In this document: piece after piece, positions 1,971 through 33,408 of the stretch
Layout: every line of letters starts with the position of its first letter
How positions within the stretch are numbered: position 1 is the first letter of the stretch
NCBI GenBank assembly: GCA_017623595.1
Contig: JAGAOU010000044.1
Span: 68,914 to 132,913 of the forward strand
DNA: 64,000 bases
Direction of reading: 5' to 3'
From: Clostridia bacterium
Lineage (GTDB): Bacteria > Bacillota > Clostridia > Oscillospirales > UBA644
Position numbers and translations under genes: made by a program
The notes under the pieces: generated by a model
Databases searched by the model: none
Seen by the model: only the letters and a program-made list of their open reading frames with translations
Told to the model about the DNA's origin: nothing

Positions 1971-1984
1971 CAAATTGATTTTAA

Positions 1985-2018
1985 GAAGCGCATCCTTGTG
2001 GATGCGCTTCTTTTTTTT
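1985..2018 (+). terminator. rho-independent terminator
   Basis: gaagcgcatcc-ttgt-ggatgcgcttc (11-bp perfect stem) followed by T8. Confidence 0.85.
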
Positions 2019-2785
2019 GCATCAAAATAACATTAACATTGATTTTTTGTTAAATAATGTGTTTTTGTTTTTATAACAAGTGGTTTGTATTTGTAAAATA
2101 ACAAATGTAATTATGTTTATGATCGATGTTGGTTTTTGATGAATTTTAATGAGGAAAAATTATGAATAACTATTGTTAATAACACATGTTATAATCTGTA
2201 TATTTTGCAGTAAAATCGCTGAAATCGTCATGTTTTTTCGCTTCTAAACTTTTTTGTCACCTGTGAGCACTGTTACTTATAATTTGCACGCTGATTTTTT
2301 TGTAATTATTTTTTTAATTTTACTTGCTTTTTCAATTTTGTCTTAATGATAATTTATTTTCCCTCTAAAAATGGTGTGTTTCTATCTGTTTTTGCACTGT
2401 AAAACATCAAAAAAACAATAAAAATGGAAGATGCAAAAAATTTCCTCTTTTTTCGATGCAATATTTTGCGCTTGAGCGAGGTTTTAACTGCGAAAGCGTA
2501 AATGAGTCGGATATTTTTTACTGTTTGCCTCGGATTTAACCCTCTTCTGTTCTTGTTCTTTTTGCAAGAGGAAAGATCCGAGCCGTCTCTGCGTGTTTTT
2601 TTAGTGCGTATCTCTTTTTGCTCTCTCGTTTTTTGCATGGTTGGTTTTGTGAAAATGTATTTTTTTCTTTTTGTGTTGACTCTTTCGAGGGATGCTTTGG
2701 AGGCTCTTTTCGTATGCCTCTTCTCGCGCAATCAGCTTGATTGAAAAGAGAAGTCAACAAAAAACCGAAAAAACTGTAAACTCCA

Positions 2786-2814
2786 TTGCTTTTTTACCTG
2801 TGATGTGCTATAAT
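2786..2814 (+). promoter_or_regulatory. candidate extended -10 promoter of the surface locus
   Basis: TTGCTT (2786-2791), 17-nt spacer, TGcTATAAT (2806-2814). It would give a ~255-nt leader before the start at 3077. Other TATAAT-like hexamers exist further upstream (~2198, ~2275). Confidence 0.4.
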
Positions 2815-3076
2815 CTCTATGTGTTATAGTTAAGTCACGGAAATACTGTAATCTTTTAGTCGATCTGTGTGGTGCTTTGGTGCCTTGCGAGCTACCTCGC
2901 GTTGCCCTCTGTCCACATCAACAGTCGATGAATGTTGCGATCCGACGTGTTCGGATGCTTCTTTTGAGATTGTTTGCAGATTTGCGAAAAAGCGCAGTTG
3001 AACTTCACTATGTACGACGCGTTCATACCGCGCATTGCGTATGAGAATAAATTTCTTTTCTAGGAGGAGAAGGAAA

Positions 3077-6000
3077 ATGCGAAAGCATGCAAAACTTTTC
3101 AAACAGGCTCAGTCCTGGGTTCTTGCAGTGGCCATTATTGTGTCCCTGTTCACACCTATGTTGAGTCTGACCTCGTCCGCTCAAACGAACGAGAAGACCA
3201 AGACAGACGGTCAGATTGTCGCTGACAATTATGCCGGTCTGTCGCCTGAGGAGAAGGCTTTGATTGGCTCCGGCCTCTTGATCGGTGAGACTCACACCTA
3301 TCAGGTCCCCGGTGCCAGCGATGATCTGATTGATGTCGATACTGACCATCAGAAAATCGTAGCCGACAGTTACGAAGGTACTGACGGCTATGTATTCAAG
3401 CCTATCTCTGCTAAGATCGTTGTCGACAACGATGTGAAGGAGACAGTCACCCTTACGGATGGCGAAGGCTCCTACGAGTATGACGGAAATGCGTTTTCCG
3501 TTAGAGTCGAGTACGTTTTGGATGTCACTATTGATGCCGATGTTCAAAACACCTTGCTCAATGCCCCCGGATATTTCGTTGATGGCCTTTCCGGTATTGA
3601 TGCCGTTGTTGCTCAAGATGGAAACCTCGAGATCTTCTCTCGTGACGAGGTTCAAAACATTCTTTTTCAAATGGCTACCTCGAATTATTTGGCCCCTGCG
3701 TACGGGACGTATGTTCCTGTCTACTTGGTTTCTACCGATGCGAAAAATGCTGTGTTGGCTCTGAATTCTCAGATTAAAAGCAACGGACAATTAAATCTTG
3801 CTGGGTTGATTGACGCATATCAGTCCGCTAACAGCAAAGTCCAGTTCCTGGTTGAGAATGGTGCTTCTTTTAGAGCCGAAGCTTTGCAGACAAAGGCTTA
3901 TTTGGAGGCAATTCTTGCTGACAGTGTTTGGTGGATCAAAGATCATGATACTTCTGTCAAGTTGTTTTGGGATGCAATGAATGCTTTGGTCAATATTCTC
4001 AATGCAGAATGTGTAGACGAATGGCCTGCAACCACCACAAAACTTGTAAAAGACGGTATTTCCGATGCTGAATATAAAACACTGGACGAATTGGTTTCCA
4101 AAATCGGTGCTGTTACTGATGTTTCTGATGTTTTGATCAAAAATCCTCTTCGTGTTGAAACCGTAACGATTCAACACAATCTGAGCATGAACGATGTTTC
4201 TGTTAGTGTCGTTTTGAAAACCACGCAGAACAATGTGGTTGCTCAGTTTGGTAATGCAACAACCGTAACGGTTACCCTCCCCACCGGTGCAACTGCCGCT
4301 GACGTTCTTTCCGCGATCGAAGAAAGTGGCGTGGAAGCCGATGCAATTGCCTACTGGGATAAAGCATATGTTGCCGGTAAATTTGAGTCTGAGACAGTTG
4401 GTGTTCCCGACACTCTGACCGAAGACGTCAGTGTTACCGTTACTTATACCCCTAAGTATTATGATGTTACTTTTGACTACACCGATGACGCTTCCTATCC
4501 TTACCGTTATGTGATCACTTTCGATAATCACGCGGATGTTTCCCAGGCTTATGACTATACCGTCAACGGTCAGTATTATGCTCAGGGTTCTTCTTATACC
4601 GTTGAAGGTGATACCAACATCACTCGTGAGGTTGGCAAGGCCTACACTCCCGGTGATCTCTATCAGATCGTTTCTGACAACTATCTGTCCGGTAAGGGTG
4701 CTTCCATCCTGACCTCCGGCGCTATCCTTGGCAACGTAGAGATCAACGTTCGTTATCCCGATAATAGCGGGAAGATTGTTGCTCTTAACGGTAACACCCT
4801 GACTGCTAAGCCTTTTGATTCGAGTTATAAGGGACTTCAGTGGACTCCTTCCTTGTATACTCTTGAAGATGGTACTACCGGAGAGTTTACCTATAACGGT
4901 GGTGTCTACGAAGCTGAATTGAGCAACTTTGAAACCGTTAAGGTTACATATTGCCTCAATTTGATGAGAAACAATGTGATTTCCAAGGATACTGTCCTTG
5001 CCGCAACGAATATCCCCCATGTTCTCAATGAAGAAGCAAAGGACCAGCTTGCAGCTCTTGAAAGCATGGCCGGTTTGAATGATAGCCTTGCTCTTTTGAC
5101 CGGGAATAATGTTGACATCTTCACATCTCTTATTGGTAGTGCTACTCTGCATTCCGATTCTGCCGTGAATGCTGCGCTGAAGGATAACTTCACCGATGTT
5201 TTGGCTAAGATTAAGACCCGTCAGACGGAAGGTCAGTTGAATCTTGCTCGTTACATCTCTGAATATGCTGCAGCGCAAGACGGTCTTCTGTACTATTATA
5301 GTAATAGCAAGGCCATCATTAGTGAGGTCAACGAGTTCTCTGCTCTCATGACTCAGATGCTTGGTGACGATGGGAATGCTCTTCTCTCCAAAGATATGAA
5401 GCAGCAAGCATTGAAGGACCTGATGGATACTTATGGTTCCGGCTTCTTATCTGCAGAGCAGTTGGAAAAATATAAGAGTAAACTGCCTGAACTTGAAGAT
5501 AAGATGAAGCAGTTGTCTGAAAATCTGAAGGCTCCCAACGAAGCCATTGATTTGAATAGTTCTAATCTTTATGTTCTGACCGCTGCGCTTCAGGAGAGTG
5601 GTGACACCAGAGAGTTCAGCGCTGTTGAAATCGGAACGCTCCTTTTGGAAGATTCCTCCATGCCTGCCTTGACATCCAACGAGAAGGTTGCTCTTTCTGT
5701 CGTTATTAAGGTAGAAGGTGGAAAAACCGTTACCGTGACCTCTAAGGCGTTTGTAAAGACTAAGGAAATTACTCAGAATGATATCGCAGAACTGAAGGGT
5801 GCTGTTGAGGCTGCCTATAGTTCTCTGTTGATTGCCGGTGCATTGTATGATAACAATTATAATTCCGGTGTGGAATTGGATGCCTTGGTTGGAATGACTG
5901 CAGGTGCGATCTCAAAAACTGTTTACGAGTATTCTTGGACCTACAGCGTGTTCTCTGTCGATGTTCCGATGGTCGGATCTCAGAATGTTTCCTACAAGAA

Positions 6001-9000
6001 TCCTGTTATTACCTTTGCGACCAGCGCCGATCCTGCTTACCGTTATGATTATTACATCAACGGAGTTAAGGTAAACGGAACCTCTTATACCTTGTCTCCC
6101 GCCGAGCTTAACAGTGTCGCAAACGGAACCTTCAAGGTTACTTTTGAATCTGTGTTTGTTCTCGAGGAGAATCTTATTAACTATGTAAACGAGTTGAATG
6201 CGTCCCTTGATTCCGATGTTGCGGTCTTTGCTTTGGTCAAAGATGCGAAGGGCGACTACTCCATCGTTCTGAAGATCGATGCCGCTCAGCCCGATGCTCT
6301 CATGGGGGCTGTTCAGGGAATTGCAATGGGCATTGCTCAGGGTAATTACCCCTATGTTGGTATTGATGGAAATGGCTTCTTTGCCGACGGTAAGATTTCT
6401 CTGCAGTGTCTGATCGATGCCCTGACCAACAGTGGCTTCGGTTCTGAAACCATCCTCAAGATGATGGACGCCAATGGCAATATCAACCATATTAATATTA
6501 ATGGTAATATTATCAGCAATCAGGCGGTTGCTCCTTGGGGCGGTCTGTTGATGGAAACTTCCATGCAGCTCGGCTCTTCCGCTGCTTCTGTTACCGACCT
6601 TCCCTTCTATGTTACCCTTGGCTCTGTTTCTTCTGAACTTGTTCAGGTTAGAAATGCTTTCGCCGGTGACCTTGGTAAATTCTTCGGTTTCGAATGCTCT
6701 AACGGTGCCTTCGGTCTGAAACTGAATCTCCCCGAAAAAGCATATGAAGCCTTCCTCGCAGTTCTTCTGATCACCGAAAAGATTGATATCACCGATATCA
6801 ATGCAGTGAACGGTGAAATCGCAATCAGCTTCTTCAATGAAATGCTGATTCCTCTCTTCAAGGGTGACATTACCGTCGAAACCTTTGAAAATACTCTGGC
6901 GAAGTTTGGCGCAAACTACGACCTTTCTTCTCAGAAGGGCGCCGAAACCCTCTTCTCCTACCTTAAGAATTTCTATACAGGTGCTACTTTTACCTACGGT
7001 GCTGATAACGGTACCGCCACCGGAACGGTGAGCATTAAGTCCTTTGTTGATTCTATGGATCTTGGGGCCCTCGGCGGTCTTATCGCTGAGTATGAGTCCG
7101 GCCTCGAGATTGGTATTGATATCGCTCTCGAAGACCTCGGTACGGATTATGAAGCCCTCTTCGTTGATGTCAACGCTTCCGGTGTTGCCAACAAGATTGG
7201 TCTTACCACCGACCTTTCTGCGAAACTCAATGATATTTCCGGCACTTCCGTCATCGTTCTTCTGAAGGACATCTCGGATGATCTCGTCATCAACACCACT
7301 ACTTTGCTTAACCTCAACGGCTTCACCGTTGATGCTAACCTGACTGCGAACGGTAAGACCATCGTCGTTGATAGCTATGTCAATGATGATAAGGTTGGTA
7401 CTGTTACCGGTAAGCTTTCCGGAAACCTGACGCTGGTTGCCGGTAAGTACACTGACGATGCCACCAACTTTGTTAAGAACGGTTTCGTTCAGGGCAATGA
7501 CGGTATTGTCAACAACAAGTTCTATTCCATCGATGAAGACGCCAACGGCAACCTCGTTGTCTCCATCAATGCCGGTCTGATTCATACCAATGAGCTCCCC
7601 GATGTTACTGGTCTTGCTCTGGATCTCGCTTGCGACCTTCTGTTCAACGGCTATTCCAGCAATTACCTGGAACTGGATGGTAACACCATCTATGACATCA
7701 CCCTCAATGAACTGATCGGCCTGTACACCTCCAGCAATCGCCTTGATTCTGTTATCGATGAAGCCCTCGGCATGATCGACAGTGCAGAACTCTCTACCTT
7801 TATTAATACTGTTCTTGACGACGTGATGGATTTCGCCGCAATCAGCGAGGCCATTGCGAAGAACGAACCCATCGTTTCCTATCCCATGATCACCAAGCCC
7901 TGGGCTGTGGAATTCCTCCACATCACCGACGGCAACTACATTGACACCAGCATCGTTTCCGGTTCTCCCGCAACCGAAAGAACCCTTCAGGTGAAGCTTG
8001 TTGGCGATGATGCCGATAAGAAGTACTTTGAAGATCTCTTTGCTGAACTTGGTAACACTGTAGACTCCGATGTCAATGTCAATATTGCTCACGGTAAGAA
8101 TGATCTCAACATCTTCGTAAATGCTGAAGCCAATGTTAACGTTACTGTTGACTGGTCTAATCCCAACTATGGAATTATGTTCAGCATCATCGTTGCCGAT
8201 GGTATCGGCGCTCCCGCAAATGCTAAGCTTGTTGCCGCGATCCGTTCTTATTACGAGACCGGTGACATCGACGCTCTCAGCGTTGCATTCAACTCTCTGA
8301 CCACCGCACAGGTAATTACTGCACTGAAGAATGTTGCTAAGGACGATTCCTTCACTGCAATGATCAGCGCTCTTGGCCTGGCCGACGTGGTTTCCGCAGA
8401 CGTTGTTACTCTTGAAGCTCTCTATGACAAGATCGGCAAGATCGCTGCTTTCGCAGTTCGCAAGGCTGATCTCGTCGGCGGTTCCCGTACCCTCTCTTCT
8501 TACCTCGGTGCAAACGGTTTCTATGACATGAGCCGTGAAAACGTTGAAAGACTCTTCAACAGAGGTCTCTTCCGCGGTTACACCATCTCTGTAGATGTTG
8601 CAATCACCGACTTCTACTTCGGTCTGAAACTGTTTGACACTGTTCCCGCTCCCGAATTCGTTGACGATCACGGTAATGCTACCGTTGGTACCAGCGACCT
8701 GCTCTTCGGTTCTCGCGTGGATCTCGACAAGCAGATGATTATCCTGGATACTGTTGCTTCCGGTGTTACCGTTGCTCAGTTGAAGGCTCTTCTGAATCTT
8801 GAAACGATCAACGCTACTTCTGTTGAACTTGTCTTCATGGTAGGAGAGACCGTCCTCGCCGACACCGATCTCGTTCCCAACGGAACTAAGGTTATTGCCA
8901 CCGCTGTCAGCACGGCTACCAAGCAGACCGACACCACTGAATACACCATCGTTATTCTTGGTGACACCAACTGTGATGGTAGAATTGCCATCGGTGACGC

Positions 9001-9169
9001 AGTTCAGATTGCTAACAACATCGTTGGCAACAATACCTTCTCCGAACTTCAGAACCTTGCCGCTGATACCAATAACAATACTCGTATTGATATCGGTGAC
9101 GCGGTCCGTATCGCAATTAAGATCACGGATAGTGCAAACTACACGTCCTTAATTGTGGTTGGACAATAA
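3077..9169 (+). CDS. giant secreted surface protein (2030 aa) with C-terminal type-I-like dockerin
   Basis: ORF 3035..9169; start set at ATG 3077 behind AGGAGGAGAAGGA. Sec signal peptide (AIIVSLFTPMLSLTSSA/QT). LNLNGFTV-type motif similar to MLDLNGHTI in the 622-aa protein. C-terminal duplicated Ca-loop segments. No recognisable enzymatic domain. Confidence 0.85.
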   Translation: MRKHAKLFKQAQSWVLAVAIIVSLFTPMLSLTSSAQTNEKTKTDGQIVADNYAGLSPEEKALIGSGLLIGETHTYQVPGASDDLIDVDTDHQKIVADSYEGTDGYVFKPISAKIVVDNDVKETVTLTDGEGSYEYDGNAFSVRVEYVLDVTIDADVQNTLLNAPGYFVDGLSGIDAVVAQDGNLEIFSRDEVQNILFQMATSNYLAPAYGTYVPVYLVSTDAKNAVLALNSQIKSNGQLNLAGLIDAYQSANSKVQFLVENGASFRAEALQTKAYLEAILADSVWWIKDHDTSVKLFWDAMNALVNILNAECVDEWPATTTKLVKDGISDAEYKTLDELVSKIGAVTDVSDVLIKNPLRVETVTIQHNLSMNDVSVSVVLKTTQNNVVAQFGNATTVTVTLPTGATAADVLSAIEESGVEADAIAYWDKAYVAGKFESETVGVPDTLTEDVSVTVTYTPKYYDVTFDYTDDASYPYRYVITFDNHADVSQAYDYTVNGQYYAQGSSYTVEGDTNITREVGKAYTPGDLYQIVSDNYLSGKGASILTSGAILGNVEINVRYPDNSGKIVALNGNTLTAKPFDSSYKGLQWTPSLYTLEDGTTGEFTYNGGVYEAELSNFETVKVTYCLNLMRNNVISKDTVLAATNIPHVLNEEAKDQLAALESMAGLNDSLALLTGNNVDIFTSLIGSATLHSDSAVNAALKDNFTDVLAKIKTRQTEGQLNLARYISEYAAAQDGLLYYYSNSKAIISEVNEFSALMTQMLGDDGNALLSKDMKQQALKDLMDTYGSGFLSAEQLEKYKSKLPELEDKMKQLSENLKAPNEAIDLNSSNLYVLTAALQESGDTREFSAVEIGTLLLEDSSMPALTSNEKVALSVVIKVEGGKTVTVTSKAFVKTKEITQNDIAELKGAVEAAYSSLLIAGALYDNNYNSGVELDALVGMTAGAISKTVYEYSWTYSVFSVDVPMVGSQNVSYKNPVITFATSADPAYRYDYYINGVKVNGTSYTLSPAELNSVANGTFKVTFESVFVLEENLINYVNELNASLDSDVAVFALVKDAKGDYSIVLKIDAAQPDALMGAVQGIAMGIAQGNYPYVGIDGNGFFADGKISLQCLIDALTNSGFGSETILKMMDANGNINHININGNIISNQAVAPWGGLLMETSMQLGSSAASVTDLPFYVTLGSVSSELVQVRNAFAGDLGKFFGFECSNGAFGLKLNLPEKAYEAFLAVLLITEKIDITDINAVNGEIAISFFNEMLIPLFKGDITVETFENTLAKFGANYDLSSQKGAETLFSYLKNFYTGATFTYGADNGTATGTVSIKSFVDSMDLGALGGLIAEYESGLEIGIDIALEDLGTDYEALFVDVNASGVANKIGLTTDLSAKLNDISGTSVIVLLKDISDDLVINTTTLLNLNGFTVDANLTANGKTIVVDSYVNDDKVGTVTGKLSGNLTLVAGKYTDDATNFVKNGFVQGNDGIVNNKFYSIDEDANGNLVVSINAGLIHTNELPDVTGLALDLACDLLFNGYSSNYLELDGNTIYDITLNELIGLYTSSNRLDSVIDEALGMIDSAELSTFINTVLDDVMDFAAISEAIAKNEPIVSYPMITKPWAVEFLHITDGNYIDTSIVSGSPATERTLQVKLVGDDADKKYFEDLFAELGNTVDSDVNVNIAHGKNDLNIFVNAEANVNVTVDWSNPNYGIMFSIIVADGIGAPANAKLVAAIRSYYETGDIDALSVAFNSLTTAQVITALKNVAKDDSFTAMISALGLADVVSADVVTLEALYDKIGKIAAFAVRKADLVGGSRTLSSYLGANGFYDMSRENVERLFNRGLFRGYTISVDVAITDFYFGLKLFDTVPAPEFVDDHGNATVGTSDLLFGSRVDLDKQMIILDTVASGVTVAQLKALLNLETINATSVELVFMVGETVLADTDLVPNGTKVIATAVSTATKQTDTTEYTIVILGDTNCDGRIAIGDAVQIANNIVGNNTFSELQNLAADTNNNTRIDIGDAVRIAIKITDSANYTSLIVVGQ
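8963..9100 (+). other. dockerin module (two F-hand Ca-binding repeats) within the giant CDS
   Basis: DTNCDGRIAIGD (8963-8998) and DTNNNTRIDIGD (9065-9100), each followed by AV(Q/R)IA. This is the classic D-x-N-x-D-G-x-I-x-x-x-D dockerin duplication. Confidence 0.8.
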
Positions 9170-9186
9170 GAAAGGAGGAGACTGAA

Positions 9187-10758
9187 ATGAAAAACATGAA
9201 AAAAGTTCTCGTTCTGCTCCTTGCTGTTCTGCTCCTTGCTACTTCTGTAGTTTCTTCTTTCGCTGAGGTTACCCCCGAGGTAACCAAGGCGAAAGCCGGT
9301 GAGACTGTTGAAATTGTTTTCAGCTACGATGATATCCCCGGCATCAGCGGTACCTTCGAATTTACGAATCCCGCACTTGTAAAAGAGTACACGATCACTT
9401 CTGACCCCGAGGCTGCCGCTAAAGGTACTTCCTACGCTTGGTTTGCCGGCAACGGAGCTGCTACCGGTGTTAAAATCACCGTCAAAGTCGTTGTTGCTGA
9501 TACAGTTCAGCCCGGCGATAAGTGCGATGTGATCTTTACCTATGAGCTCTCTGATAAAGACGGTAAGTTGCCTGCAACCCCCGACTATAAGGTCGATACC
9601 GCAACCATCGAGATTATAGACTCTTCTGTTTCTATTGATTATACCGGTTTGGATGAGCAAATTACCCGGTACGGCAATCTTATCAAGGATCAGTATACTG
9701 TAGATTCTTGGGCCGTCGCCGAAGCTGCTTATGAAGAAGCGATGAAGGTTCGCAACCAGTCCCCTGTAACACAGACGGAAGTTGATCATGCTGCAGATGC
9801 TCTGAAAAAGGCAATCGACAACCTTGTCCCCGTGCCTTCGGTTGATTACTCCAGACTGGAAAAGTTGATCGCTGATGCAAAGAGCATCAGTTCCCTCTTT
9901 GCTGAGTATACCGAAGATTCTTGGAATGCTCTGGAAGTTGCTCTGGCTGCCGGTGAAGCAGCTTTGAATTCCGATAGCCAGAAGGTTGTTAACGAGGCTG
10001 CGGATAACCTCGAAGCCGCTCTTCATGGTCTTAAAAGACTTGATTATAAGAAACTGAATGAGCAAATTGATGCGGCGAATGCCCTGAAGAAGGAAGACTA
10101 CACCGCAGATTCTTGGACCAAGCTGGAAAAGGCTCTTGCGGATGCTGTCGCCGCCAAGACCTCCAGAGTTCAGAAGGTTATCGATGACGCTGCCGATGCT
10201 TTGGAGGCTGCTATTAAAGCCCTCGTTCCTGTGTCTGTTCCTTCTGTTGATTACACTGAACTGAACAAGCAGATCGAAATTGCACAGGGCTTGAACAAGG
10301 ACGAATACACTGCAGATTCCTGGGCTAAGCTGGAAAAAGCTCTCGCCGACGCCATTGCTGCCAGAGAATCCAAGGTCCAGCAGGAAGTAGACGATGCCGC
10401 AAAGGCTCTTGCCGACGCCATCGCCGCTCTTGAAAAGAAGCCTGTGGTTATTCCTGTTGACTACACCAAGCTGGAAGAGGCCATCGAGAAGGCTCTGAGC
10501 CTGAAGGAAGAAGACTATACTCCCAATTCTTGGGCAAACCTGCAGAAGGCTCTTGCCGATGCAATTGCCGCAAGAAAGTCGAACGTTCAGTCTGAGGTTG
10601 ACGCTGCAATGAATGCTCTGAATGCCGCTATTGATGCTCTTGTTCCTGCAACCTCCGATAGCGTGGTCTCTCACCTCTGGATTGCACTCGCTGCATGCGT
10701 GGTAGTCCTCCTCGGCGTTCTTGCTCTGCGTTTCAGAAAAAGAACCTCTGAAAGATAA
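9187..10758 (+). CDS. membrane-anchored surface protein: signal peptide, cohesin-like N-domain, 5 FIVAR-like repeats, C-terminal TM helix
   Basis: Signal peptide ...SVVSSFA/EV. N-domain KAGETVEIVFSYDDIPGISGTFEFTNPALVKEY ... GDKCDVIFTYEL resembles the cohesin strand pattern. Repeats of form DY(T/S)xLxxxIxxAxxLxxxxYTxDSWxxLxxALxxA...VDxAAxAL. C-terminal helix HLWIALAACVVVLLGVLAL then RFRKR. Confidence 0.75.
   Translation: MKNMKKVLVLLLAVLLLATSVVSSFAEVTPEVTKAKAGETVEIVFSYDDIPGISGTFEFTNPALVKEYTITSDPEAAAKGTSYAWFAGNGAATGVKITVKVVVADTVQPGDKCDVIFTYELSDKDGKLPATPDYKVDTATIEIIDSSVSIDYTGLDEQITRYGNLIKDQYTVDSWAVAEAAYEEAMKVRNQSPVTQTEVDHAADALKKAIDNLVPVPSVDYSRLEKLIADAKSISSLFAEYTEDSWNALEVALAAGEAALNSDSQKVVNEAADNLEAALHGLKRLDYKKLNEQIDAANALKKEDYTADSWTKLEKALADAVAAKTSRVQKVIDDAADALEAAIKALVPVSVPSVDYTELNKQIEIAQGLNKDEYTADSWAKLEKALADAIAARESKVQQEVDDAAKALADAIAALEKKPVVIPVDYTKLEEAIEKALSLKEEDYTPNSWANLQKALADAIAARKSNVQSEVDAAMNALNAAIDALVPATSDSVVSHLWIALAACVVVLLGVLALRFRKRTSER
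9634..10650 (+). repeat. five tandem ~65-aa FIVAR-like repeats (intragenic)
   Basis: Repeat units begin IDYTGLDEQ, VDYSRLEKL, LDYKKLNEQ, VDYTELNKQ and VDYTKLEEA. DNA-level similarity is visible, e.g. gattcttggaccaagctggaaaaggctcttgcggatgc versus gattcctgggctaagctggaaaaagctctcgccgacgc. Confidence 0.7.
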
Positions 10759-10800
10759 TTATTGAATCCATCGGCACCATCAATAAGTTCGGTGACCAGT

Positions 10801-10828
10801 CCGGTGCGCCGCCTGTGCGGCGTGCCGG
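10801..10828 (+). promoter_or_regulatory. intercistronic GC-rich hairpin without U-tail
   Basis: ccggtgcgccgc-ctgt-gcggcgtgccgg, a 12-bp stem including two G-U pairs, followed by gtgggattt rather than a T-run. Confidence 0.4.
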
Positions 10829-10849
10829 GTGGGATTTCAAAACAAGGAT

Positions 10850-12355
10850 ATGAAAGATATGAAAAGAAAGTTAGTTAATTTAATATCGGTTTTGTTGCTC
10901 ATCGTTGTGTTATTGATGGCTACCGGTCTTTCGTCTTCTGCGAAGGTTATCACTCCTATGGCGGTTAATGTGACCCCGGGGGAGACGGTAACTGTTAAAT
11001 TCCAGTATGAAAAAATCATGGGATTTCAGGGACGTATTGTGTTTTCTTCCCCATCAGCTATCTCCAAATATACAGTTACCGGTGATACCCTGCAGACCAT
11101 GCCCGGTTCGGATGGTACGATTGCCGGATTTGGCCTGGCTGTGGTTGACCAATATACAATCACGCTGGTTCTTACTGTATCCGAAACCGCAAAAATAGGG
11201 GAGACCGTTACCGTTTCCTTAAAGGGCTATGGTACTGTTGATGGCGCGAACGATCCTCCTGAAGATCAATGGGGTGTTGAAAGCGTTTCTCTTACTATTG
11301 TGGAAAAACTTGAAACCGCAACTTTGCGCGACCTTATTTCTCAGGCGGAAGCCCTGAATCCCTCTGCTTACACCTCCAATACCTGGAAAACGTTGCAGTC
11401 CGCACTTACCAATGCGAAAAGTGCATTGAACAATGCCACCACTCAGCGGGATATCAATGCGGCCGCAGATGCTCTTCGGGATGCAATCAAAGGCCTTGAA
11501 GAACTTCCCAAGCCTCCCACCATTGACTACTCTTCTCTTTTGAAGCAAATCAAAATTGCAGAGGGTCTTGTGGAGCAGGACTATACCGCGGCTTCTTGGA
11601 AAAACATGAAGACCGCTTTGACCGCAGCACGTGCTGCCAAGTCCAGCACGAATCAGTCTGCGGTTGATTCTGCCGCAAATGCTCTGAAGGATGCAATCAA
11701 TGCCTTGGTTCCCGTTTCCGGAAGCAAAGTTGTCAATTTTGATGAGTTGAATAAGCAAATTGCCGCCGCAGAAGCATTGAAGGAATCCGATTATACCGCA
11801 GCTTCCTGGTCTGCCTTGGTTACTGCCCTTGCGAATGCAAAGGAAGCCAGAAGTTATACCTCTCAAAGCCGCGTAAATGCCGCAATGGAAGATCTGAAGA
11901 GTGCGATTGCTTCCCTTGAGAAGCTCAACCTTCAGCGTCTTTTGGATGCGATTGCCGCTTTGAAGGGATATGCAGATCAAGATGAACTTGCACAGTTGAT
12001 TGCTCAGATCAACGGGCTTTTGGCGAAGGCAGAGGAAGCGCTTCATAGCGGAGATCAGGCGATCATTGATTCCTGCGCTGTTGAACTGGAAAATCTGCTT
12101 CGCTCAATCCTCAGCAAACTGGAAGATCTCAAGCAGACGAACACCGTGATTGTTGAGAAGCCTGTTCCTACCGATCCCACCGATGATTTCTGTAATATCG
12201 GATCTCATATTGTTTGGATTGTTCTCTTCTGGATCAGCTTTGCTTCGAACGTTGCGGTTGCTGCATTTATTATCTCTTACTATTTCATGAAGAAAAAGAA
12301 GACCTCTGACGACACTCCTTTGGTGGATTATGACATCACCGATGATGTAGAGTAA
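10850..12355 (+). CDS. second membrane-anchored cohesin-like / FIVAR-repeat protein
   Basis: ORF 10829..12355; likely start ATG 10850 or 10859 (MKDMKRKLVNLISVLLLIVVLLMATGLSSSA/K). N-domain PGETVTVKFQYEKIMGFQGRIVFSSPSAISKY is paralogous to the previous gene. Three YT(S/A)xxW repeats. C-terminal TM helix IVWIVLFWISFASNVAVAAFIISYYF. Confidence 0.75.
   Translation: MKDMKRKLVNLISVLLLIVVLLMATGLSSSAKVITPMAVNVTPGETVTVKFQYEKIMGFQGRIVFSSPSAISKYTVTGDTLQTMPGSDGTIAGFGLAVVDQYTITLVLTVSETAKIGETVTVSLKGYGTVDGANDPPEDQWGVESVSLTIVEKLETATLRDLISQAEALNPSAYTSNTWKTLQSALTNAKSALNNATTQRDINAAADALRDAIKGLEELPKPPTIDYSSLLKQIKIAEGLVEQDYTAASWKNMKTALTAARAAKSSTNQSAVDSAANALKDAINALVPVSGSKVVNFDELNKQIAAAEALKESDYTAASWSALVTALANAKEARSYTSQSRVNAAMEDLKSAIASLEKLNLQRLLDAIAALKGYADQDELAQLIAQINGLLAKAEEALHSGDQAIIDSCAVELENLLRSILSKLEDLKQTNTVIVEKPVPTDPTDDFCNIGSHIVWIVLFWISFASNVAVAAFIISYYFMKKKKTSDDTPLVDYDITDDVE
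11314..11925 (+). repeat. three tandem FIVAR-like repeats (intragenic)
   Basis: Units centre on AYTSNTWKTLQSAL, DYTAASWKNMKTAL and DYTAASWSALVTAL, each followed by a (V/I)(D/N)xAAxxL segment. Confidence 0.6.
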
Positions 12356-18620: not shown

Positions 18621-19442
18621 ATGAACGATAATATCCCTACGAATAATGTAGAGACAACGGTTGTGCCGGAAGTTCCCGCTTCTGCACCCAATCCTTCCCC
18701 CAGAATGAAAAAGAGAAAGAAGAAGAACAACTCCAAGAAAACATTGAATATTGTCATCAATGTGATTCTTGTCGTGGCCATTGTAATTGCCGCAGTTTGT
18801 ACTTACATCTCTTTTGTTACCACCTCCGGGAACGGCGTTCCCAATGTGTTCGGTCTCCGACTTCTGTCGATTCAGACCGACTCCATGTATCCTAAATTTA
18901 AGTCCGGAGATCTGATTATTTCCGTTGGCATCGACGATCCTTCAGAGCTCCGTCCAAAAGATATTATTACCTATTGGACCGTCATCAACGGTGAACGTGT
19001 CCTGAATACCCACCGTATTGAGAACATCTACGATGGCGGCGGGTATCTGATCTTTGAGACCAAGGGTGATAACAACGCCAACGTCGACCCCCTGACCGTC
19101 CATGAATCGGAACTGGTGGGTGTGTACAAGTTCTGTATCCCCGGCGTCGGTAAAGCCCTTGATTACCTGCAGACAAGCACCGGCTTTTTGCTGGTGGTTC
19201 TGATCCCCGTTCTGCTCTTCTTCCTGTATCATCTCGTTCAGTTCTTCCGCGTTTTGTTTGAATATCAGAACGTTAAGAACCGTATTAAGTTTGAGCAGGA
19301 AAGAGGCAAGACGGAAGATCTTCTTGCCGAACAGGCTCAACGTGAGGCTGAGCGTGCCCAGATGGAGGCTGAGTTGCGGGAAAAACTCCGTGCCGAACTT
19401 CTGGAAAGCATGGCCAGAGAAAAAGAATCGAAGGACGAATAA
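18621..19442 (+). CDS. signal peptidase I, SipW-like (ER/archaeal type, S26B), paralogue 1
   Basis: AGGAGG RBS. TM helix, catalytic Ser box QTDSMYPKFKSGDLI, His box NTHRI, and ETKGDNNANVD. Second TM helix near the C-terminus, as in B. subtilis SipW, then a charged tail (...ELREKLRAELLESMAREKESKDE). Confidence 0.8.
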   Translation: MNDNIPTNNVETTVVPEVPASAPNPSPRMKKRKKKNNSKKTLNIVINVILVVAIVIAAVCTYISFVTTSGNGVPNVFGLRLLSIQTDSMYPKFKSGDLIISVGIDDPSELRPKDIITYWTVINGERVLNTHRIENIYDGGGYLIFETKGDNNANVDPLTVHESELVGVYKFCIPGVGKALDYLQTSTGFLLVVLIPVLLFFLYHLVQFFRVLFEYQNVKNRIKFEQERGKTEDLLAEQAQREAERAQMEAELREKLRAELLESMAREKESKDE

Positions 19443-19492: not shown

Positions 19493-21088
19493 ATGGATAA
19501 TTTTTTCAGATACTTTTTCCAGGATATCGGGAATGTTTTCCGCGCTTTCGTGGATGCACTTGTTGCGTTTTGGGACTTTATTTACCTGTTGTTTAACTTC
19601 CCCAAACGCATGGATATTATTGCTCAGTACAACGAATCCTTCTCCACAACGGAGTGGGTTTTGTTGCTGGTGGTCAATCTCATCCTCGTTGCGCTGATTA
19701 TTGTTCTGATTGTCTTTCTTGTAAAACTTTTCCGCAAGATATTCCGTTTCCGCATTTCGCCGAAAAAATACGATGATGTGGTGCGTCAGTTGCGTGCTCT
19801 TCAACGGGATTTGATCCGCGCAAACTACGAAAAGGATCGCCTTCTGGCCATGCGAGTGACTGAAATGGGCGGGAAAGATCCTCTTCCGCAGTTCGAGGGA
19901 ATGGAAGATCAAGAAGAAAATACGGAGCAAACAGAGCCGAAGGAAGATGTTCCCCTCGTATCCGCGAACCGCAATCGGTTCGATTCTCCCTGCGTGGATC
20001 CCGCCGACAGCCGTTTCTTCCGTCTGACCGGTGTGGACAACTTCTATAAAACCGAATATTATCCCCCCGTGTATGATGATAATGTCACCTTAAGTGAGTT
20101 CTGTGAGCGATTCCGCCTCTTTGCGGCATCCAGATTGCATCTGTATTATGATCTTGACATGATGCGGTTCTTTGTTGCGTCTATGGGTGCTGCCAGAATT
20201 ATCATTTTGCAAGGTATTTCCGGTACCGGTAAAACCAGTTTGCCCTATGCCTTCGGTAAGTTTGTTCAGAAGGACTCTACCGTGGTTTCTGTCCAGCCTT
20301 CCTGGCGTGAACGTACTGAGCTTTACGGTTATTTTAACGAATTTACCAAGCGCTATTCCGAAACCGAATTTTTGCGCGCCATTTACGAAGGAAACTATTA
20401 TCGCGATCCCCATGTGGTAATCCTGGACGAAATGAACATCGCCCGCGTGGAATACTACTTTGCGGAGATGCTCTCCATTCTTGAAATGCCGCTTCAGGAA
20501 GAATGGAAGGTCGATATTGTTACTTCTGTTTGGGATAACGACCCCTGCTTGATTGAAGGCGGTACCGTTCGTATTCCCAATAATATTTGGTTCGTCGGTA
20601 CCATCAATAACGACGACTCCACCTTTGCCGTCGCCGATAAGGTGTACGACCGTGCCATCCCCATCGACTTGGACAGCCGTGCGGAACCCTTTGAATGCGA
20701 GGATACCGATCCGATTTTTGTCTCTACAGATCGTCTTAGCTATCTGTTCGAAGAAGCAAAGAGTATGTATCCGGTATCGAATGAAATTCTTGAAAAGCTG
20801 GAGATCGTCAACGAATACGTTATTAAGAATTTCCGTCTGGCCTTCGGTAACCGTGTTATGAAGCAGATTAAGGACTTCGTTCCTTGCTTTGTTGCTTGCG
20901 GCGGAACCGAGCTTCAGGCTGTTGACTTTATTGTTGCGAAGAAAGTTCTCCGTAAACTGGAATCCTTGAGCCTTGGCTTTATGAAGGACGACCTGACGAA
21001 ATTCAGCAGTTTCTTGGATCGTACCTTTGGCAAGAACTCGATGATGTTCTGCAAGAATTATATTGAATTGTTGAAGAAGACCAACTGA
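19493..21088 (+). CDS. membrane-anchored McrB-like (AAA_5) AAA+ NTPase
   Basis: Two N-terminal hydrophobic segments (VFRAFVDALVAFWDFIYLLFNF; WVLLLVVNLILVALIIVLIVFLVKLF) and a short coiled coil. Walker A ILQGISGTGKTS. Walker B plus McrB-type helix VVILDEMNIARVEYYFAEMLSILE. IPNNIWFVGTINNDDSTFAVADKVYDRA matches the McrB 'N-x-x-i-i-G-T-M-N-t-a-D-r-S' region as I recall it. Confidence 0.7.
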   Translation: MDNFFRYFFQDIGNVFRAFVDALVAFWDFIYLLFNFPKRMDIIAQYNESFSTTEWVLLLVVNLILVALIIVLIVFLVKLFRKIFRFRISPKKYDDVVRQLRALQRDLIRANYEKDRLLAMRVTEMGGKDPLPQFEGMEDQEENTEQTEPKEDVPLVSANRNRFDSPCVDPADSRFFRLTGVDNFYKTEYYPPVYDDNVTLSEFCERFRLFAASRLHLYYDLDMMRFFVASMGAARIIILQGISGTGKTSLPYAFGKFVQKDSTVVSVQPSWRERTELYGYFNEFTKRYSETEFLRAIYEGNYYRDPHVVILDEMNIARVEYYFAEMLSILEMPLQEEWKVDIVTSVWDNDPCLIEGGTVRIPNNIWFVGTINNDDSTFAVADKVYDRAIPIDLDSRAEPFECEDTDPIFVSTDRLSYLFEEAKSMYPVSNEILEKLEIVNEYVIKNFRLAFGNRVMKQIKDFVPCFVACGGTELQAVDFIVAKKVLRKLESLSLGFMKDDLTKFSSFLDRTFGKNSMMFCKNYIELLKKTN

Positions 21089-21112
21089 TAAAACAGGAAA
21101 GGAGTGTACGCC

Positions 21113-24324: not shown

Positions 24325-24326
24325 TT

Positions 24327-25055
24327 ATGAAGCATGCAGACAACAGAACGAAGATTCGGAACAGAATAATATCGGCATCGGTCACAGTCCTGTTGGTTCT
24401 ATCACTGTTTTGCTGTTTGTATGTGATTGTTCAGGTCTTGACCTGTGGATATGTTTCTTTTGGCGGTCATTGCTTTTTTCGGGTTGTGACCGGCAGTATG
24501 GAGCCTTCCCTCTCTGTGGGAGAATTGATTCTGACCGATGATGTGGACATCAAAGAGATCTGCGTCGGGGATGTTGTCAGTTTCCGTTCTCAATCGATCG
24601 ATACCATGGGGAATATTATTACCCACCGGGTGGTGGATGTTTCGCACAATGCAATGGGTGAAATCCAACTTTTGACGAAGGGGGATGCGAATCTGTCTGT
24701 GGATGGAATGTATGTAACCGCCTCGAATTTAATCGGAAAAGTTGTTTGGTCTTCCGGAGACAGTTTCCTTGCCTCCGTGATGTCGTTTTTGTCCGGTCGG
24801 TATGGTTTTCTCGCATGTATTGTATTTCCCTGTCTGCTAATTCTTGGCTTTGTGTTGAAAGACAATGTTAAGTCTATGAGACGCGACATGAAGAAGCTTG
24901 TAGATACAATGGAAAAATCCGGGGAAGATGTGGCACTGGTGTCTTCGGATGTTATTGCAGAAGAAGATTATGATGCTATGCGTGAACGCCTTCGTGCGGA
25001 ATTGATGGAGGAGCTATTGAATCGTGATGTTGAAGCACAGTCGAGAGAAGAATAA
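24327..25055 (+). CDS. signal peptidase I, SipW-like, paralogue 2
   Basis: ATG 24327 (TTG 24321 possible). Ser box VVTGSMEPSLSVGELI, His box ITHRVV, and LTKGDANLSVD. C-terminal TM helix FLACIVFPCLLILGFVL, then a charged tail ...MRERLRAELMEELLNRDVEAQSREE. Confidence 0.8.
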   Translation: MKHADNRTKIRNRIISASVTVLLVLSLFCCLYVIVQVLTCGYVSFGGHCFFRVVTGSMEPSLSVGELILTDDVDIKEICVGDVVSFRSQSIDTMGNIITHRVVDVSHNAMGEIQLLTKGDANLSVDGMYVTASNLIGKVVWSSGDSFLASVMSFLSGRYGFLACIVFPCLLILGFVLKDNVKSMRRDMKKLVDTMEKSGEDVALVSSDVIAEEDYDAMRERLRAELMEELLNRDVEAQSREE

Positions 25056-33346: not shown

Positions 33347-33408
33347 ACACGCTGGTGTAAGATCTTTATGAAGTAAAAGTTTGTTTTTTGTTAATGAGGT
33401 AGGTATCT

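What the first reader, a model, noticed from the sequence alone, without database searches (positions are those of the whole stretch)
3077..12355. Self-contained cohesin-dockerin-like trio: a 2030-aa dockerin protein followed by two membrane-anchored cohesin-like/FIVAR proteins
The giant protein ends in a clear duplicated dockerin (DTNCDGRIAIGD ... DTNNNTRIDIGD). The next two genes encode signal peptide + ~120-aa beta-domain + FIVAR-like helical repeats + C-terminal TM helix with a basic stop-transfer. The beta-domain strand pattern (G-E-T-V-x-(I/V)-x-F ... G-(I/F)-x-G-x-(F/I)-x-F ... then hydrophobic alternation) resembles cohesins. If they are cohesins, this is a minimal non-cellulosomal anchoring system: the helical repeats would act as a stalk holding the giant protein away from the membrane. 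It lies directly upstream of, and on the same strand as, the TasA-like fibre genes. Anchoring by a C-terminal TM helix rather than SLH or sortase is uncommon for scaffoldins.
Basis: partly seen in the sequence, partly recalled or inferred. Interest (0 to 1): 0.65.

Follow-up and report, generated by a model that had tools for sequence, protein, structure and literature searches.

The report
Membrane-stalk cohesins holding a giant dockerin protein
A gut Clostridia (Oscillospiraceae) operon encodes a 2,030-residue secreted protein ending in a genuine dockerin, followed by two membrane-anchored stalk proteins whose unannotated tip domains are most likely divergent cohesins, so this is probably a dedicated plug-and-socket system for displaying one giant protein on the cell surface.

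Summary
Gene 3077-9169 encodes a secreted 2,030-aa protein whose last ~70 residues are a dockerin: 27.5 bits against Pfam's 22.9-bit cut-off, and an ortholog profile hits about 30 solved dockerins. Genes 9187-10758 and 10850-12355 each encode a signal peptide, a ~120-aa beta domain, FIVAR repeats (5 and 3) and a C-terminal TM helix.

The beta domains get no Pfam Cohesin hit, and sequence similarity to cohesins is weak. Two independent family profiles both rank the R. flavefaciens ScaE cohesin first (E 8e-5 and 1e-3). Profile-profile probability is only 12-35%.

AlphaFold models of both paralogs match cohesins best (TM 0.57, and 0.69 to ScaB Coh5).

The strongest evidence is genomic. In 27 related Oscillospiraceae loci a dockerin-ended giant gene sits 0-110 nt upstream of the cohesin-like gene. 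In 5 loci without the giant gene, the same membrane protein has lost the beta domain; four carry SH3b instead. Dockerin and beta-domain divergence co-vary (partial r 0.55).

Binding is untested. TM-anchored single cohesins were already predicted in ruminococci. New here are the FIVAR stalk, an invariant cytoplasmic tail, the dedicated giant cargo, and embedding in a conserved SipW signal-peptidase cluster. Verdict: a new variant of a known kind.

The parts
2786..2814 (+). Promoter-like site TTGCTT-17 nt-TATAAT with a TG extension, about 260 nt upstream of the giant gene (tentative)
   Evidence: Read from the sequence. It is a consensus match only and is not conserved in relatives.
3077..9169 (+). 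Gene for the giant secreted protein (2,030 aa), preceded by an AGGAGGAG ribosome-binding site. The body (residues 38-1886) matches no known family.
   Evidence: Pfam, NCBIfam and PDB give no hit outside the dockerin. Orthologs of 2,000-3,000 aa occur in more than 20 loci at 25-52% identity.
3077..3187 (+). Sec-type signal peptide of the giant protein (residues 1-37, ...SLTSSAQT)
   Evidence: Hydrophobic segment at residues 11-35; sequence.
8735..8959 (+). Conserved ~75-aa beta-rich module that runs directly into the dockerin (residues 1887-1961). It is a possible X-module analogue.
   Evidence: Conserved in all orthologs (IILDT..GITV..L...GTKVTATA...YTIIILGD). The X-module role is inferred only.
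8960..9151 (+). Dockerin module (residues 1962-2025) with Ca-binding loops at 8963-8998 and 9065-9100
   Evidence: Pfam Dockerin_1 at 27.5 bits against a 22.9-bit cut-off on the isolated tail, and 19 of 20 orthologs hit. The ortholog profile hits about 30 solved dockerins, E down to 1.9e-13.
9187..10758 (+). cohA gene (523 aa): signal peptide, cohesin-like domain, five FIVAR repeats, TM helix and a short basic tail
9265..9621 (+). cohA cohesin-like beta domain (residues 27-145)
   Evidence: AlphaFold2 model with pLDDT 76. Its highest TM-scores are to cohesins (4uyp_C 0.57). The family profile's top PDB hit is the ScaE cohesin, E 8e-5.
9631..10647 (+). cohA FIVAR stalk, five repeats (residues 149-487)
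   Evidence: Pfam FIVAR E 2.1e-23 with 5 stretches; repeat starts at residues 151, 220, 286, 355 and 425.
10672..10755 (+). cohA C-terminal TM helix (residues 496-514) and basic tail RFRKRTSER
   Evidence: Hydropathy; coordinates.
10850..12355 (+). cohB gene (501 aa from the ATG at 10850; the mechanical ORF starts at GTG 10829): signal peptide, cohesin-like domain, three FIVAR repeats, helical segment, juxtamembrane motif, TM helix and a conserved acidic tail
10943..11308 (+). cohB cohesin-like beta domain (residues 32-153)
   Evidence: AlphaFold2 model with pLDDT 80.6 and pTM 0.72. The top Foldseek hit is the R. flavefaciens ScaB cohesin 5 (5n5p_A): E 8.7e-5, TM 0.69, rmsd 3.7 A.
11309..12136 (+). 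cohB stalk: three FIVAR repeats (residues 154-359) and a further helical segment (residues 360-429)
   Evidence: Pfam FIVAR E 4.5e-13 with 3 stretches; alignment A3.
12161..12286 (+). cohB juxtamembrane motif P..DDFCN...H..W (invariant P, C, N, H and W) and TM helix (residues 454-479)
   Evidence: Invariant columns in A3 and A4; hydropathy.
12287..12352 (+). cohB cytoplasmic tail KKKKTSDDTPLVDYDITDDVE, whose DDTPLVDYDI core is nearly invariant across the subfamily
   Evidence: It is the only such motif in the window.

Best explanation
The trio is a dedicated, non-cellulosomal cohesin-dockerin display system of an Oscillospiraceae bacterium.

Proposed mechanism:
1. All three proteins are exported by Sec signal peptides.
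2. cohA and cohB stay in the membrane through a single C-terminal helix, N-terminus outside and basic residues inside.
3. Their FIVAR three-helix-bundle repeats (5 and 3, plus an extra helical segment in cohB) form a stalk through the cell wall.
4. The divergent cohesin-fold domain at the stalk tip binds, with Ca2+, the dockerin at the C-terminus of the 2,030-aa protein. That protein is thereby held non-covalently at the cell surface.
5. cohB is the ancestral, universally conserved receptor. Its invariant cytoplasmic tail (DDTPLVDYDI) probably contacts a cytoplasmic partner of the conserved gene cluster it belongs to (HD-domain protein, AAA+ ATPase, two SipW signal peptidases).
6. cohA is a later duplicate that lacks this tail.

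What is shown: the domain content, the topology signals, the dockerin identity, the conservation and the co-occurrence. What is inferred: the cohesin identity of the tip (probable), the binding, the stalk function and the role of the tail.
For: Dockerin identity:
- Pfam scores the isolated tail above its cut-off, and 19 of 20 orthologs hit.
- The ortholog profile hits about 30 solved dockerins.

Tip domain, structure:
- AlphaFold2 models of both paralogs (pLDDT 76 and 81) have cohesins as their best TM matches.
- For cohB, a type III cohesin (5n5p_A) is the top hit by E-value (8.7e-5) and by TM (0.69). The C. perfringens GH33 cohesin 2vo8 follows at 0.60.

Tip domain, sequence:
- Family profile A2 has the ScaE cohesin as top PDB hit at E 8e-5, and 5 of its top 10 hits are cohesins.
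- An independent profile from the other half of the family again ranks ScaE first, at E 1e-3.
- hhalign of A2 against the CohE sequence gives 92% probability over 94 columns.
- The experimentally proven CohE itself carries no precomputed Pfam domain, so the lack of a Pfam hit is not informative.

Genomic coupling:
- In 27 loci a dockerin-terminated ORF ends 0-110 nt upstream of the cohesin-like gene.
- L034 and L035 each carry two such dockerin-then-cohesin pairs in tandem.
- In the 5 loci lacking a dockerin gene (L013, L023, L025, L029, L030), the orthologous FIVAR-TM-tail protein has no beta domain. Four of them carry SH3_3 instead.
- Dockerin and cohB-domain distances correlate at r = 0.74. 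This exceeds either one's correlation with neighbouring genes (0.48-0.66). The partial r is 0.55 with permutation p about 2e-4 over 15 loci.

Spacer role of the stalk:
- FIVAR copy number ranges from 0 to 9 among relatives.
- Some relatives have a Pro/Thr-rich linker in the same place.

The window holds one dockerin and two cohesin-like domains and no others.
Against: - Pfam Cohesin does not match either protein. It matches only 4 of 64 relatives at E <= 1 (best 0.084), and it does not match the family consensus.
- Profile-profile comparison with an alignment of ScaE-family cohesins gives only 12% probability. After trimming it gives 34.5% (P 4e-4).
- The comparison with a type I cohesin (CipA Coh7) misaligned.
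- Foldseek lists other beta-sandwiches at similar E-values, with TM 0.45-0.56: the GH123 N-domain, pilus chaperones and MSP.
- Strand topology could not be inspected.
- No complex prediction or binding data exist.
- One locus (L010) has an extra cohB-type gene with no adjacent dockerin gene.
- The mirror-tree signal could partly reflect shared fast evolution of exposed proteins. The secreted neighbour g335 also shows partial r of 0.34-0.41.
- The rest of the genome is unseen, so other dockerins or cohesins may exist.
Confidence: 0.7

Rival explanations
1. The N-terminal beta domains are generic Ig-like or beta-sandwich surface domains (adhesin tips or assembly factors of the neighbouring SipW-dependent system), not dockerin receptors. 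The giant protein's dockerin binds a canonical cohesin encoded elsewhere, or acts only as a Ca2+-binding stabiliser. Gene adjacency reflects co-regulation only.
For: There is no Pfam Cohesin match. Profile-profile probability is weak, at 12-35%. Foldseek returns many non-cohesin beta-sandwiches at comparable E-values. L010 has a cohB-type gene without a neighbouring dockerin.
Against: Cohesins are the best structural match for both paralogs. ScaE cohesin is the best PDB sequence hit for two independent profiles. The strict co-presence in 27 loci and co-absence in 5 loci of the dockerin gene and the beta domain, with a domain swap to SH3b, is hard to explain by co-regulation alone. There is excess co-variation between the dockerin and the beta domain. 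The only established partners of dockerins are cohesins (established knowledge of the family).
Confidence: 0.18
2. cohA and cohB are anchoring scaffoldins of a larger cellulosome- or amylosome-like system. They receive many dockerin-bearing enzymes encoded elsewhere in the genome, and the giant protein is only one client. The system would then not be self-contained.
For: TM-helix-anchored single cohesins are predicted as anchors of multi-enzyme systems in R. difficilis, Ruminococcus sp. HUN007 and others (PMC13463774; PMC11557425). Only 64 kb of the genome is visible. The two diverged cohesin-like domains (about 25-32% identity) could have different specificities.
Against: There is no glycoside hydrolase and no second dockerin in the window. 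The pairing of one dockerin gene with one or two cohesin-like genes in a single operon is conserved across family-level divergence, and each extra dockerin gene comes with its own cohesin-like gene (L034, L035). The cohesin-like domain disappears exactly when the giant gene does.
Confidence: 0.1
3. The ORFs or motifs are chance features or assembly artefacts.
For: None beyond the sub-threshold Pfam score of the dockerin in the full-length protein.
Against: All three genes are conserved in order and orientation in dozens of independent metagenome-assembled genomes. There are 119 representative relatives of the beta domain.
Confidence: 0.01

Closest known systems
Ruminococcus flavefaciens ScaE cohesin with CttA/ScaB X-dockerin (type III cohesin-dockerin, sca gene cluster)
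   Same: A single-cohesin cell-surface anchor encoded next to a large non-catalytic protein with a C-terminal dockerin (PMC5301203). ScaE is the best PDB sequence hit of the tip-domain family, and ScaB Coh5 is the best structural hit. A conserved beta module abuts the dockerin, as an X-module does. Like the tip domains here, the ScaE cohesin has no Pfam match on record.
   Different: ScaE is sortase/LPXTG-anchored, has no FIVAR stalk and serves a multi-enzyme cellulosome. Here the anchor is a C-terminal TM helix, the stalk is FIVAR and the cargo is a 2,030-aa protein with no CBM or enzyme domain. The dockerin lacks the ScaB/CttA insertions. Sequence homology to the ScaE family is marginal.
Predicted transmembrane-anchored single-cohesin scaffoldins (R. 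difficilis, Ruminococcus sp. HUN007, Lachnoclostridium sp. MSJ-17, H. luporum, C. cibarium)
   Same: A single cohesin plus a C-terminal TM helix. The ruminococcal cohesins are often too divergent for sequence-based detection and were found by AlphaFold (PMC13463774; PMC11557425). The taxonomic neighbourhood is the same (Oscillospiraceae/Ruminococcus).
   Different: Those are interpreted as anchors of cellulosome- or amylosome-like enzyme complexes with dozens of dockerin proteins. No FIVAR stalk (the term does not occur in PMC13463774), conserved cytoplasmic tail, adjacent dedicated giant cargo or SipW-cluster context was found for them in the passages read.
Clostridium perfringens non-cellulosomal cohesin-dockerin pairs (NagH/NagJ toxin complexes, FIVAR-dockerin)
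   Same: Non-cellulosomal use of cohesin-dockerin pairs, with FIVAR modules in the same proteins (own knowledge of Adams et al. 2008). The dockerin profile hits 2jnk/2ozn at E 1e-3. The cohesin 2vo8 matches the cohB model at TM 0.60.
   Different: There, FIVAR adjoins the dockerin on secreted glycosidases, and the complexes are not membrane-anchored. Here FIVAR adjoins the cohesin-like domain and forms a membrane stalk.
Bacillus tapA-sipW-tasA type operons
   Same: The trio is co-oriented with, and conserved next to, two SipW-type signal peptidases (TIGR02228 at 89.5 and 84.7 bits against a cut-off of 51.85). It also adjoins several secreted proteins whose signal peptides end in a YAWF(T/S)LS-like motif.
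   Different: No TasA/Peptidase_M73 homology was detectable in the neighbours. No cohesin-dockerin component was found reported for TasA systems (own knowledge).

Membership tests
Dockerin (Pfam PF00404, type I-like) | Two tandem 12-residue EF-hand-like Ca2+-binding loops (D-x-N/D-x-D/N-x-x-I/V-x-x-x-D), each followed by a helix, within about 70 residues | tested here: met
   The loops are DTNCDGRIAIGD and DTNNNTRIDIGD, 34 residues apart, each followed by AV(Q/R)IA. They are conserved in orthologs.
Dockerin (Pfam PF00404, type I-like) | HMM score above Pfam's gathering threshold | tested here: met
   The isolated tail scores 27.5 bits against 22.9, and 19 of 20 orthologs match. In the full-length protein the score is 20 bits, below threshold.
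Dockerin (Pfam PF00404, type I-like) | Sequence homology to structurally solved dockerins | tested here: met
   The ortholog profile hits about 30 dockerin chains, E from 1.9e-13 to 1e-3.
Dockerin (Pfam PF00404, type I-like) | Ca2+-dependent binding to a cohesin | not testable with these tools
   No multimer prediction or experiment was available.
Cohesin (PF00963; types I-III) | Match to the Pfam Cohesin HMM | tested here: not met
   There is no hit for cohA or cohB. Only 4 of 64 relatives match at E <= 1, best 0.084. The family consensus does not match. Caveat: the proven ScaE cohesin also has no Pfam domain on record.
Cohesin (PF00963; types I-III) | Detectable sequence homology to experimentally proven cohesins | tested here: inconclusive
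   Profile against PDB: ScaE is the top hit at E 8e-5 and at E 1e-3 for two disjoint profiles. hhalign against CohE gives 92%. Against the ScaE-family profile it gives 12-35%. Against CipA Coh7 it misaligned.
Cohesin (PF00963; types I-III) | The closest solved structures to the domain's model are cohesins (beta-sandwich of about 120-150 residues) | tested here: met
   For the cohB model, 5n5p_A is the top hit (E 8.7e-5, TM 0.69/0.63, rmsd 3.7 A), with 2vo8 at 0.60, 5nrm_A at 0.55 and 4uyp_C at 0.55. For the cohA model, cohesins give the highest TM-scores (0.57, 0.54, 0.53).
Cohesin (PF00963; types I-III) | Nine-stranded jelly-roll topology (sheets 8-3-6-5 and 9-1-2-7-4) | not testable with these tools
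   No coordinates are returned. DSSP strings show 6-8 strands. Other beta-sandwiches score at similar E-values.
Cohesin (PF00963; types I-III) | Binds a dockerin | not testable with these tools
   The evidence is indirect only: adjacency in 27 loci, co-absence in 5 loci, and co-variation with partial r 0.55.
FIVAR (PF07554) | Repeated ~70-residue helical modules above the Pfam threshold | tested here: met
   cohA scores 83.2 bits with 5 stretches and cohB 50.1 bits with 3 stretches, against a cut-off of 29.2.
Cellulosomal anchoring scaffoldin | Cell-surface anchor through SLH domains or a sortase LPXTG signal | tested here: not met
   There is no SLH or LPXTG. Instead there is a C-terminal TM helix followed by basic residues.
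Cellulosomal anchoring scaffoldin | Clients are dockerin-bearing carbohydrate-active enzymes or enzyme-loaded scaffoldins | tested here: not met
   The only dockerin protein in the window has no CAZyme or CBM domain. There is no other dockerin in the 64 kb. The rest of the genome is unseen.
TapA-SipW-TasA type fibre operon (context claimed by the finding) | SipW-type (archaeal/ER-type) signal peptidase I | tested here: met
   TIGR02228 scores 89.5 and 84.7 bits against 51.85 for genes 18621-19442 and 24321-25055.
TapA-SipW-TasA type fibre operon (context claimed by the finding) | TasA/camelysin (Peptidase_M73) homolog | tested here: not met
   There is no Pfam, NCBIfam or PDB-profile hit for the neighbouring secreted proteins. 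Only a SipW-like signal-peptide motif is visible by eye.

The most novel reading that the evidence does not exclude
cohB-type proteins (FIVAR stalk, C-x4-H juxtamembrane motif, TM helix, invariant DDTPLVDYDI cytoplasmic tail) are the transmembrane hub of a so far undescribed cell-surface organelle of Oscillospiraceae. That organelle would be built by the conserved SipW / AAA+ / HD-domain cluster. The tip of the hub is a swappable socket: a cohesin that loads a giant dockerin protein, or SH3b that binds cell wall. The cytoplasmic tail would couple what happens at the tip to cytoplasmic machinery such as the c-di-GMP-type HD-domain protein encoded immediately downstream in every locus where that region is covered. 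This would make a cohesin-dockerin pair part of an outside-in mechanical or signalling device rather than a passive anchor.
Probability: 0.2. Interest if true: 0.8.

Novelty: new variant of a known kind. Interest (0 to 1): 0.55.

Why it matters
Cohesin-dockerin pairs are best known as the glue of cellulosomes. Uses outside polysaccharide degradation are few and poorly understood.

Here a pair appears to be dedicated to one giant protein of unknown function, in uncultured gut and rumen Oscillospiraceae. The anchor combines features not found described together in the papers searched: a FIVAR stalk, a C-terminal TM helix and an invariant cytoplasmic motif.

The tip domain is annotated publicly only as 'FIVAR domain-containing' or 'hypothetical' protein, and Pfam does not detect it. 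A family of at least 119 clusters of likely cohesins is therefore missing from annotation. This fits the recent finding that ruminococcal cohesins escape sequence-based detection (PMC13463774).

The natural co-loss and domain swap (cohesin-like to SH3b) provide a ready comparative test. They also point to a modular display platform inside a conserved, uncharacterised SipW-dependent surface system. If binding is confirmed, the pair would be a compact, orthogonal plug-and-socket module for protein display on Gram-positive cells.

Tried and rejected
- Word-indexed homolog search with the cohA N-domain found nothing. With the family alignment it found only 4 proteins, although the exhaustive library holds 119. 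This limited the depth of the alignments allowed for AlphaFold to 2 and 6 sequences.
- An exact look-up of cohA in public assemblies found nothing on record.
- tblastn of cohA against plasmids gave only FIVAR-repeat matches in Enterococcus and Carnobacterium, which are uninformative.
The conserved cohB C-terminus (A4) worked.
- hhalign of the family against the type I CipA cohesin 7 aligned the wrong strand (42%). I rejected it as evidence either way.
- Scanning the family consensus against Pfam gave no Cohesin hit.
- The giant protein's body has no Pfam, NCBIfam or PDB-profile hit, no internal repeats and no paralog in the cluster. Its function remains unknown.
- I looked for a riboswitch or leader upstream of the giant gene. 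There is no Rfam hit, and the upstream regions of 8 loci do not align.
- I tested 'TasA-like' for the 334-aa neighbour with an 11-ortholog profile against PDB. There was no TasA hit.
- I considered folding a cohesin-linker-dockerin fusion.
- Long antisense ORFs overlapping the three genes (for example 5912-8671 and 9139-10674 on the minus strand) were disregarded as mechanical ORFs. The conservation evidence gathered is all for the plus-strand genes; the antisense frames were not themselves tested.

Full report
**1. What is there**

Three co-oriented genes occupy 3077-12355 on the + strand, with short spacers of 17 and 91 nt.

The first gene encodes a 2,030-aa protein:
- It has a Sec-type signal peptide.
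- It is acidic and non-repetitive, with no detectable domain over residues 38-1886.
- A conserved ~75-aa beta-rich module runs directly into a C-terminal dockerin.

The second gene (cohA, 523 aa) and third gene (cohB, 501 aa) have the same plan: signal peptide, ~120-aa beta domain, FIVAR repeats (5 and 3; Pfam E 2.1e-23 and 4.5e-13), one C-terminal TM helix, then basic residues.

cohB has three additional elements:
- a helical segment after the FIVAR repeats;
- a juxtamembrane motif with invariant P, C, N, H and W;
- a cytoplasmic tail, KKKKTSDDTPLVDYDITDDVE.

No convincing terminator separates the trio from the genes downstream.

**2. The dockerin is genuine**

- In the context of the 2,030-aa protein, Pfam Dockerin_1 scores 20 bits, just under the 22.9-bit threshold.
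- The isolated tail scores 27.5 bits (E 3.6e-6), and 19 of 20 orthologous tails also match.
- A profile of these tails hits about 30 solved dockerins, from C. thermocellum, A. cellulolyticus, R. flavefaciens and the R. bromii amylases, with E from 1.9e-13 to 1e-3. True EF-hand proteins appear only below them.
- Both halves carry the same loop-plus-helix pattern (D-T-N-x-x-x-R-I-x-I-G-D-A-V-x-I-A). The module is therefore internally symmetric, as in dockerins with a dual binding mode. That last point is an inference.

**3. Are the beta domains cohesins?**

*Sequence evidence is weak but reproducible.*
- The two domains are paralogs (E 7e-11).
- An exhaustive profile search found 119 representative relatives. 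Nearly all have a signal peptide, this domain, 0-9 FIVAR-like repeats or a Pro/Thr linker, and a C-terminal TM helix.
- Pfam Cohesin matches neither protein, only 4 of 64 relatives at E <= 1, and not the family consensus.
- A 64-sequence family profile has the R. flavefaciens ScaE cohesin as its best PDB hit (E 8e-5). Four further cohesin entries are among its top ten.
- A second profile, built from the other, more distant half of the family, again puts ScaE first (E 1e-3).
- hhalign of the family against the CohE sequence gives 92% probability over 94 columns.
- Against an 18-sequence alignment of ScaE relatives, probability falls to 12%. After trimming it is 34.5% (P 4e-4), with a collinear alignment only at low stringency.
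- Against a type I cohesin the alignment was wrong.
- The proven ScaE cohesin itself has no Pfam domain on record. A 2026 study reports that ruminococcal cohesins commonly escape sequence-based detection (PMC13463774).

*Structure evidence.*
- cohA model (2 sequences, pLDDT 76): hits are weak, but the highest TM-scores are cohesins (0.57, 0.54, 0.53).
- cohB model (6 sequences, pLDDT 81, pTM 0.72): the type III cohesin ScaB Coh5 (5n5p_A) is the top hit by E-value (8.7e-5) and by TM-score (0.69, rmsd 3.7 A). It is followed among the cohesins by 2vo8 (0.60), 5nrm_A and 4uyp_C (0.55).
- Other beta-sandwiches (the GH123 N-domain, pilus chaperones, MSP) appear at similar E-values but lower TM. The fold assignment is therefore probable, not certain.

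**4. Genomic evidence**

Using the conserved cohB C-terminus as a probe, 37 loci were retrieved from Oscillospiraceae, Acutalibacteraceae, Faecousia, Vescimonas and related gut or rumen MAGs. None is close to the window. The best match, L007, shows 52% identity for the giant protein and 79% for the AAA+ protein.

The conserved gene order is: giant-dockerin, (cohA), cohB, HD-domain protein, 335-aa protein, 818-aa protein, 334-aa protein, SipW, AAA+ protein, coiled-coil protein.

Pattern of co-occurrence:
- In 27 loci, an ORF ending in the dockerin stops 0-110 nt before a gene starting with the beta domain.
- The giant bodies have diverged to 25-30% identity while the dockerin stays recognisable.
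- Distant loci have only the giant gene plus cohB. cohA is confined to the window's clade, so cohB is the ancestral partner.
- L034 and L035 have two dockerin genes, each followed by its own cohesin-like gene.
- Five loci lack a dockerin gene (L013, L023, L025, L029, L030). There the FIVAR-TM-tail protein is still present in front of the HD gene but has no beta domain. Four of them have a bacterial SH3 domain instead (Pfam SH3_3, E 1e-9 to 3e-12).
- One exception is L010, which has an additional cohB-type gene without a neighbouring dockerin.

Pairwise divergence of the dockerin and the cohB tip domain correlates at r = 0.74. This is more than either shows with three neighbouring genes. The partial correlation is 0.55 (permutation p about 2e-4, 15 loci). 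That is supportive, but another secreted neighbour also shows some excess correlation.

**5. Mechanism proposed**

- Export and topology follow from the sequence.
- The FIVAR repeats are three-helix bundles, known as rod-forming repeats in Gram-positive surface proteins (own knowledge). Their variable number, and their replacement by Pro/Thr linkers in relatives, fit a spacer that lifts the tip through the cell wall.
- The tip domain most likely binds the dockerin of the giant protein in a Ca2+-dependent way and so displays it on the surface.
- cohB's tail and juxtamembrane motif are nearly invariant while the tip evolves fast. Tips are about 42% identical within a type, against 55-71% for the HD protein. 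This points to a conserved cytoplasmic contact.
- What the giant protein does is unknown.

**6. Comparison and novelty**

- The nearest characterised system is R. flavefaciens ScaE with the X-dockerins of CttA and ScaB, which are encoded in the same sca gene cluster (PMC5301203). It differs in the anchor (sortase), the stalk and the cargo.
- TM-helix-anchored single cohesins have already been predicted in several Clostridia (PMC11557425, PMC13463774). The anchoring mode alone is therefore not new.
- I found no description of any of the following: a FIVAR stalk under a cohesin, the conserved cytoplasmic tail, a dedicated giant cargo gene, the cohesin/SH3b swap, or a link to a SipW cluster.
- Public records call family members 'FIVAR domain-containing protein' or 'hypothetical protein'.
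- I rate it a new variant of a known kind, with moderate interest.

**7. Limits**

- There is no multimer prediction, no coordinates and no binding data.
- Alignment depth for structure prediction was small.
- Only 64 kb of the genome is visible.
- 'TasA-like' for the neighbours rests on two confirmed SipW peptidases and a signal-peptide motif seen by eye. It does not rest on homology.

Noticed in passing
window 12161-12352 (cohB C-terminus); also L001-L037 and 38 of 119 representative relatives: The cytoplasmic tail (K/R)4-x2-DDTPLVDYDI-x-DD is nearly invariant, as is an extracellular juxtamembrane motif P-x4-C-N-x3-H-x2-W. Both stay conserved while the rest of the protein diverges. No partner or function is known to me.
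   Followed up: partly
window 12378-32553: A conserved downstream cluster comprises:
- an HD-domain (HD_5, c-di-GMP phosphodiesterase-like) protein;
- two SipW-type signal peptidases (18621-19442 and 24321-25055);
- an AAA_5/McrB-like ATPase (19493-21088);
- an E/R/K-rich coiled-coil protein (21104-23002);
- five or six secreted proteins of 334-1,704 aa whose signal peptides end in YAWF(T/S)LS-like motifs.
None of the secreted proteins has a detectable TasA or other family match. This looks like an uncharacterised surface-assembly system.
   Followed up: partly
L013:713-1666, L023:3403-4638, L025:9077-10177, L029:9215-10177, L030:9413-10303: In loci without the giant dockerin gene, the orthologous FIVAR-TM-tail protein carries a bacterial SH3 (SH3_3) domain in place of the cohesin-like tip, or no tip at all (L030). 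In L025 two recombinase-like genes lie just upstream.
   Followed up: yes
L034:3-10201 and L035:1-10213; L010:6740-10216: L034 and L035 each carry two tandem pairs of a dockerin gene followed by a cohesin-like gene. L010 carries an extra cohB-type gene between a BspA-type LRR membrane protein and the second SipW gene, with no adjacent dockerin.
   Followed up: partly
window 1971-3076: A 1.1-kb AT-rich non-coding region lies upstream of the giant gene. It holds two promoter-like sites (2254-2283, 11 of 12 matches; 2786-2814, TTGCTT-17-TATAAT) and a terminator-like hairpin with a T-run at 2940-2966 inside the putative leader. There is no Rfam match, and the region is not conserved in relatives.
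   Followed up: yes
window 10757-10850: The cohA-cohB spacer folds into a strong GC-rich hairpin (core 10801-10828; -36.8 kcal/mol for the 94-nt spacer) without a following T-run. It may be a processing, stability or partial-termination element setting the cohA:cohB ratio.
   Followed up: no
window 8735-8959: A conserved ~75-aa beta-rich module directly precedes the dockerin with no linker in all orthologs. Its position is reminiscent of the X-modules of type II and type III dockerins.
   Followed up: no
window 32609-35184: A prolipoprotein diacylglyceryl transferase (Lgt)-like gene and a BspA-type leucine-rich-repeat surface protein follow the cluster. In L010 the BspA-like gene sits inside the cluster, next to a cohB-type gene.
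   Followed up: no
P0120, P0055, P0121, P0122 (metagenome proteins of 257-268 aa): These short relatives have the same tip domain joined to the TM helix by a ~90-aa Pro/Thr-rich linker instead of FIVAR repeats. This suggests that the spacers are interchangeable.
   Followed up: partly
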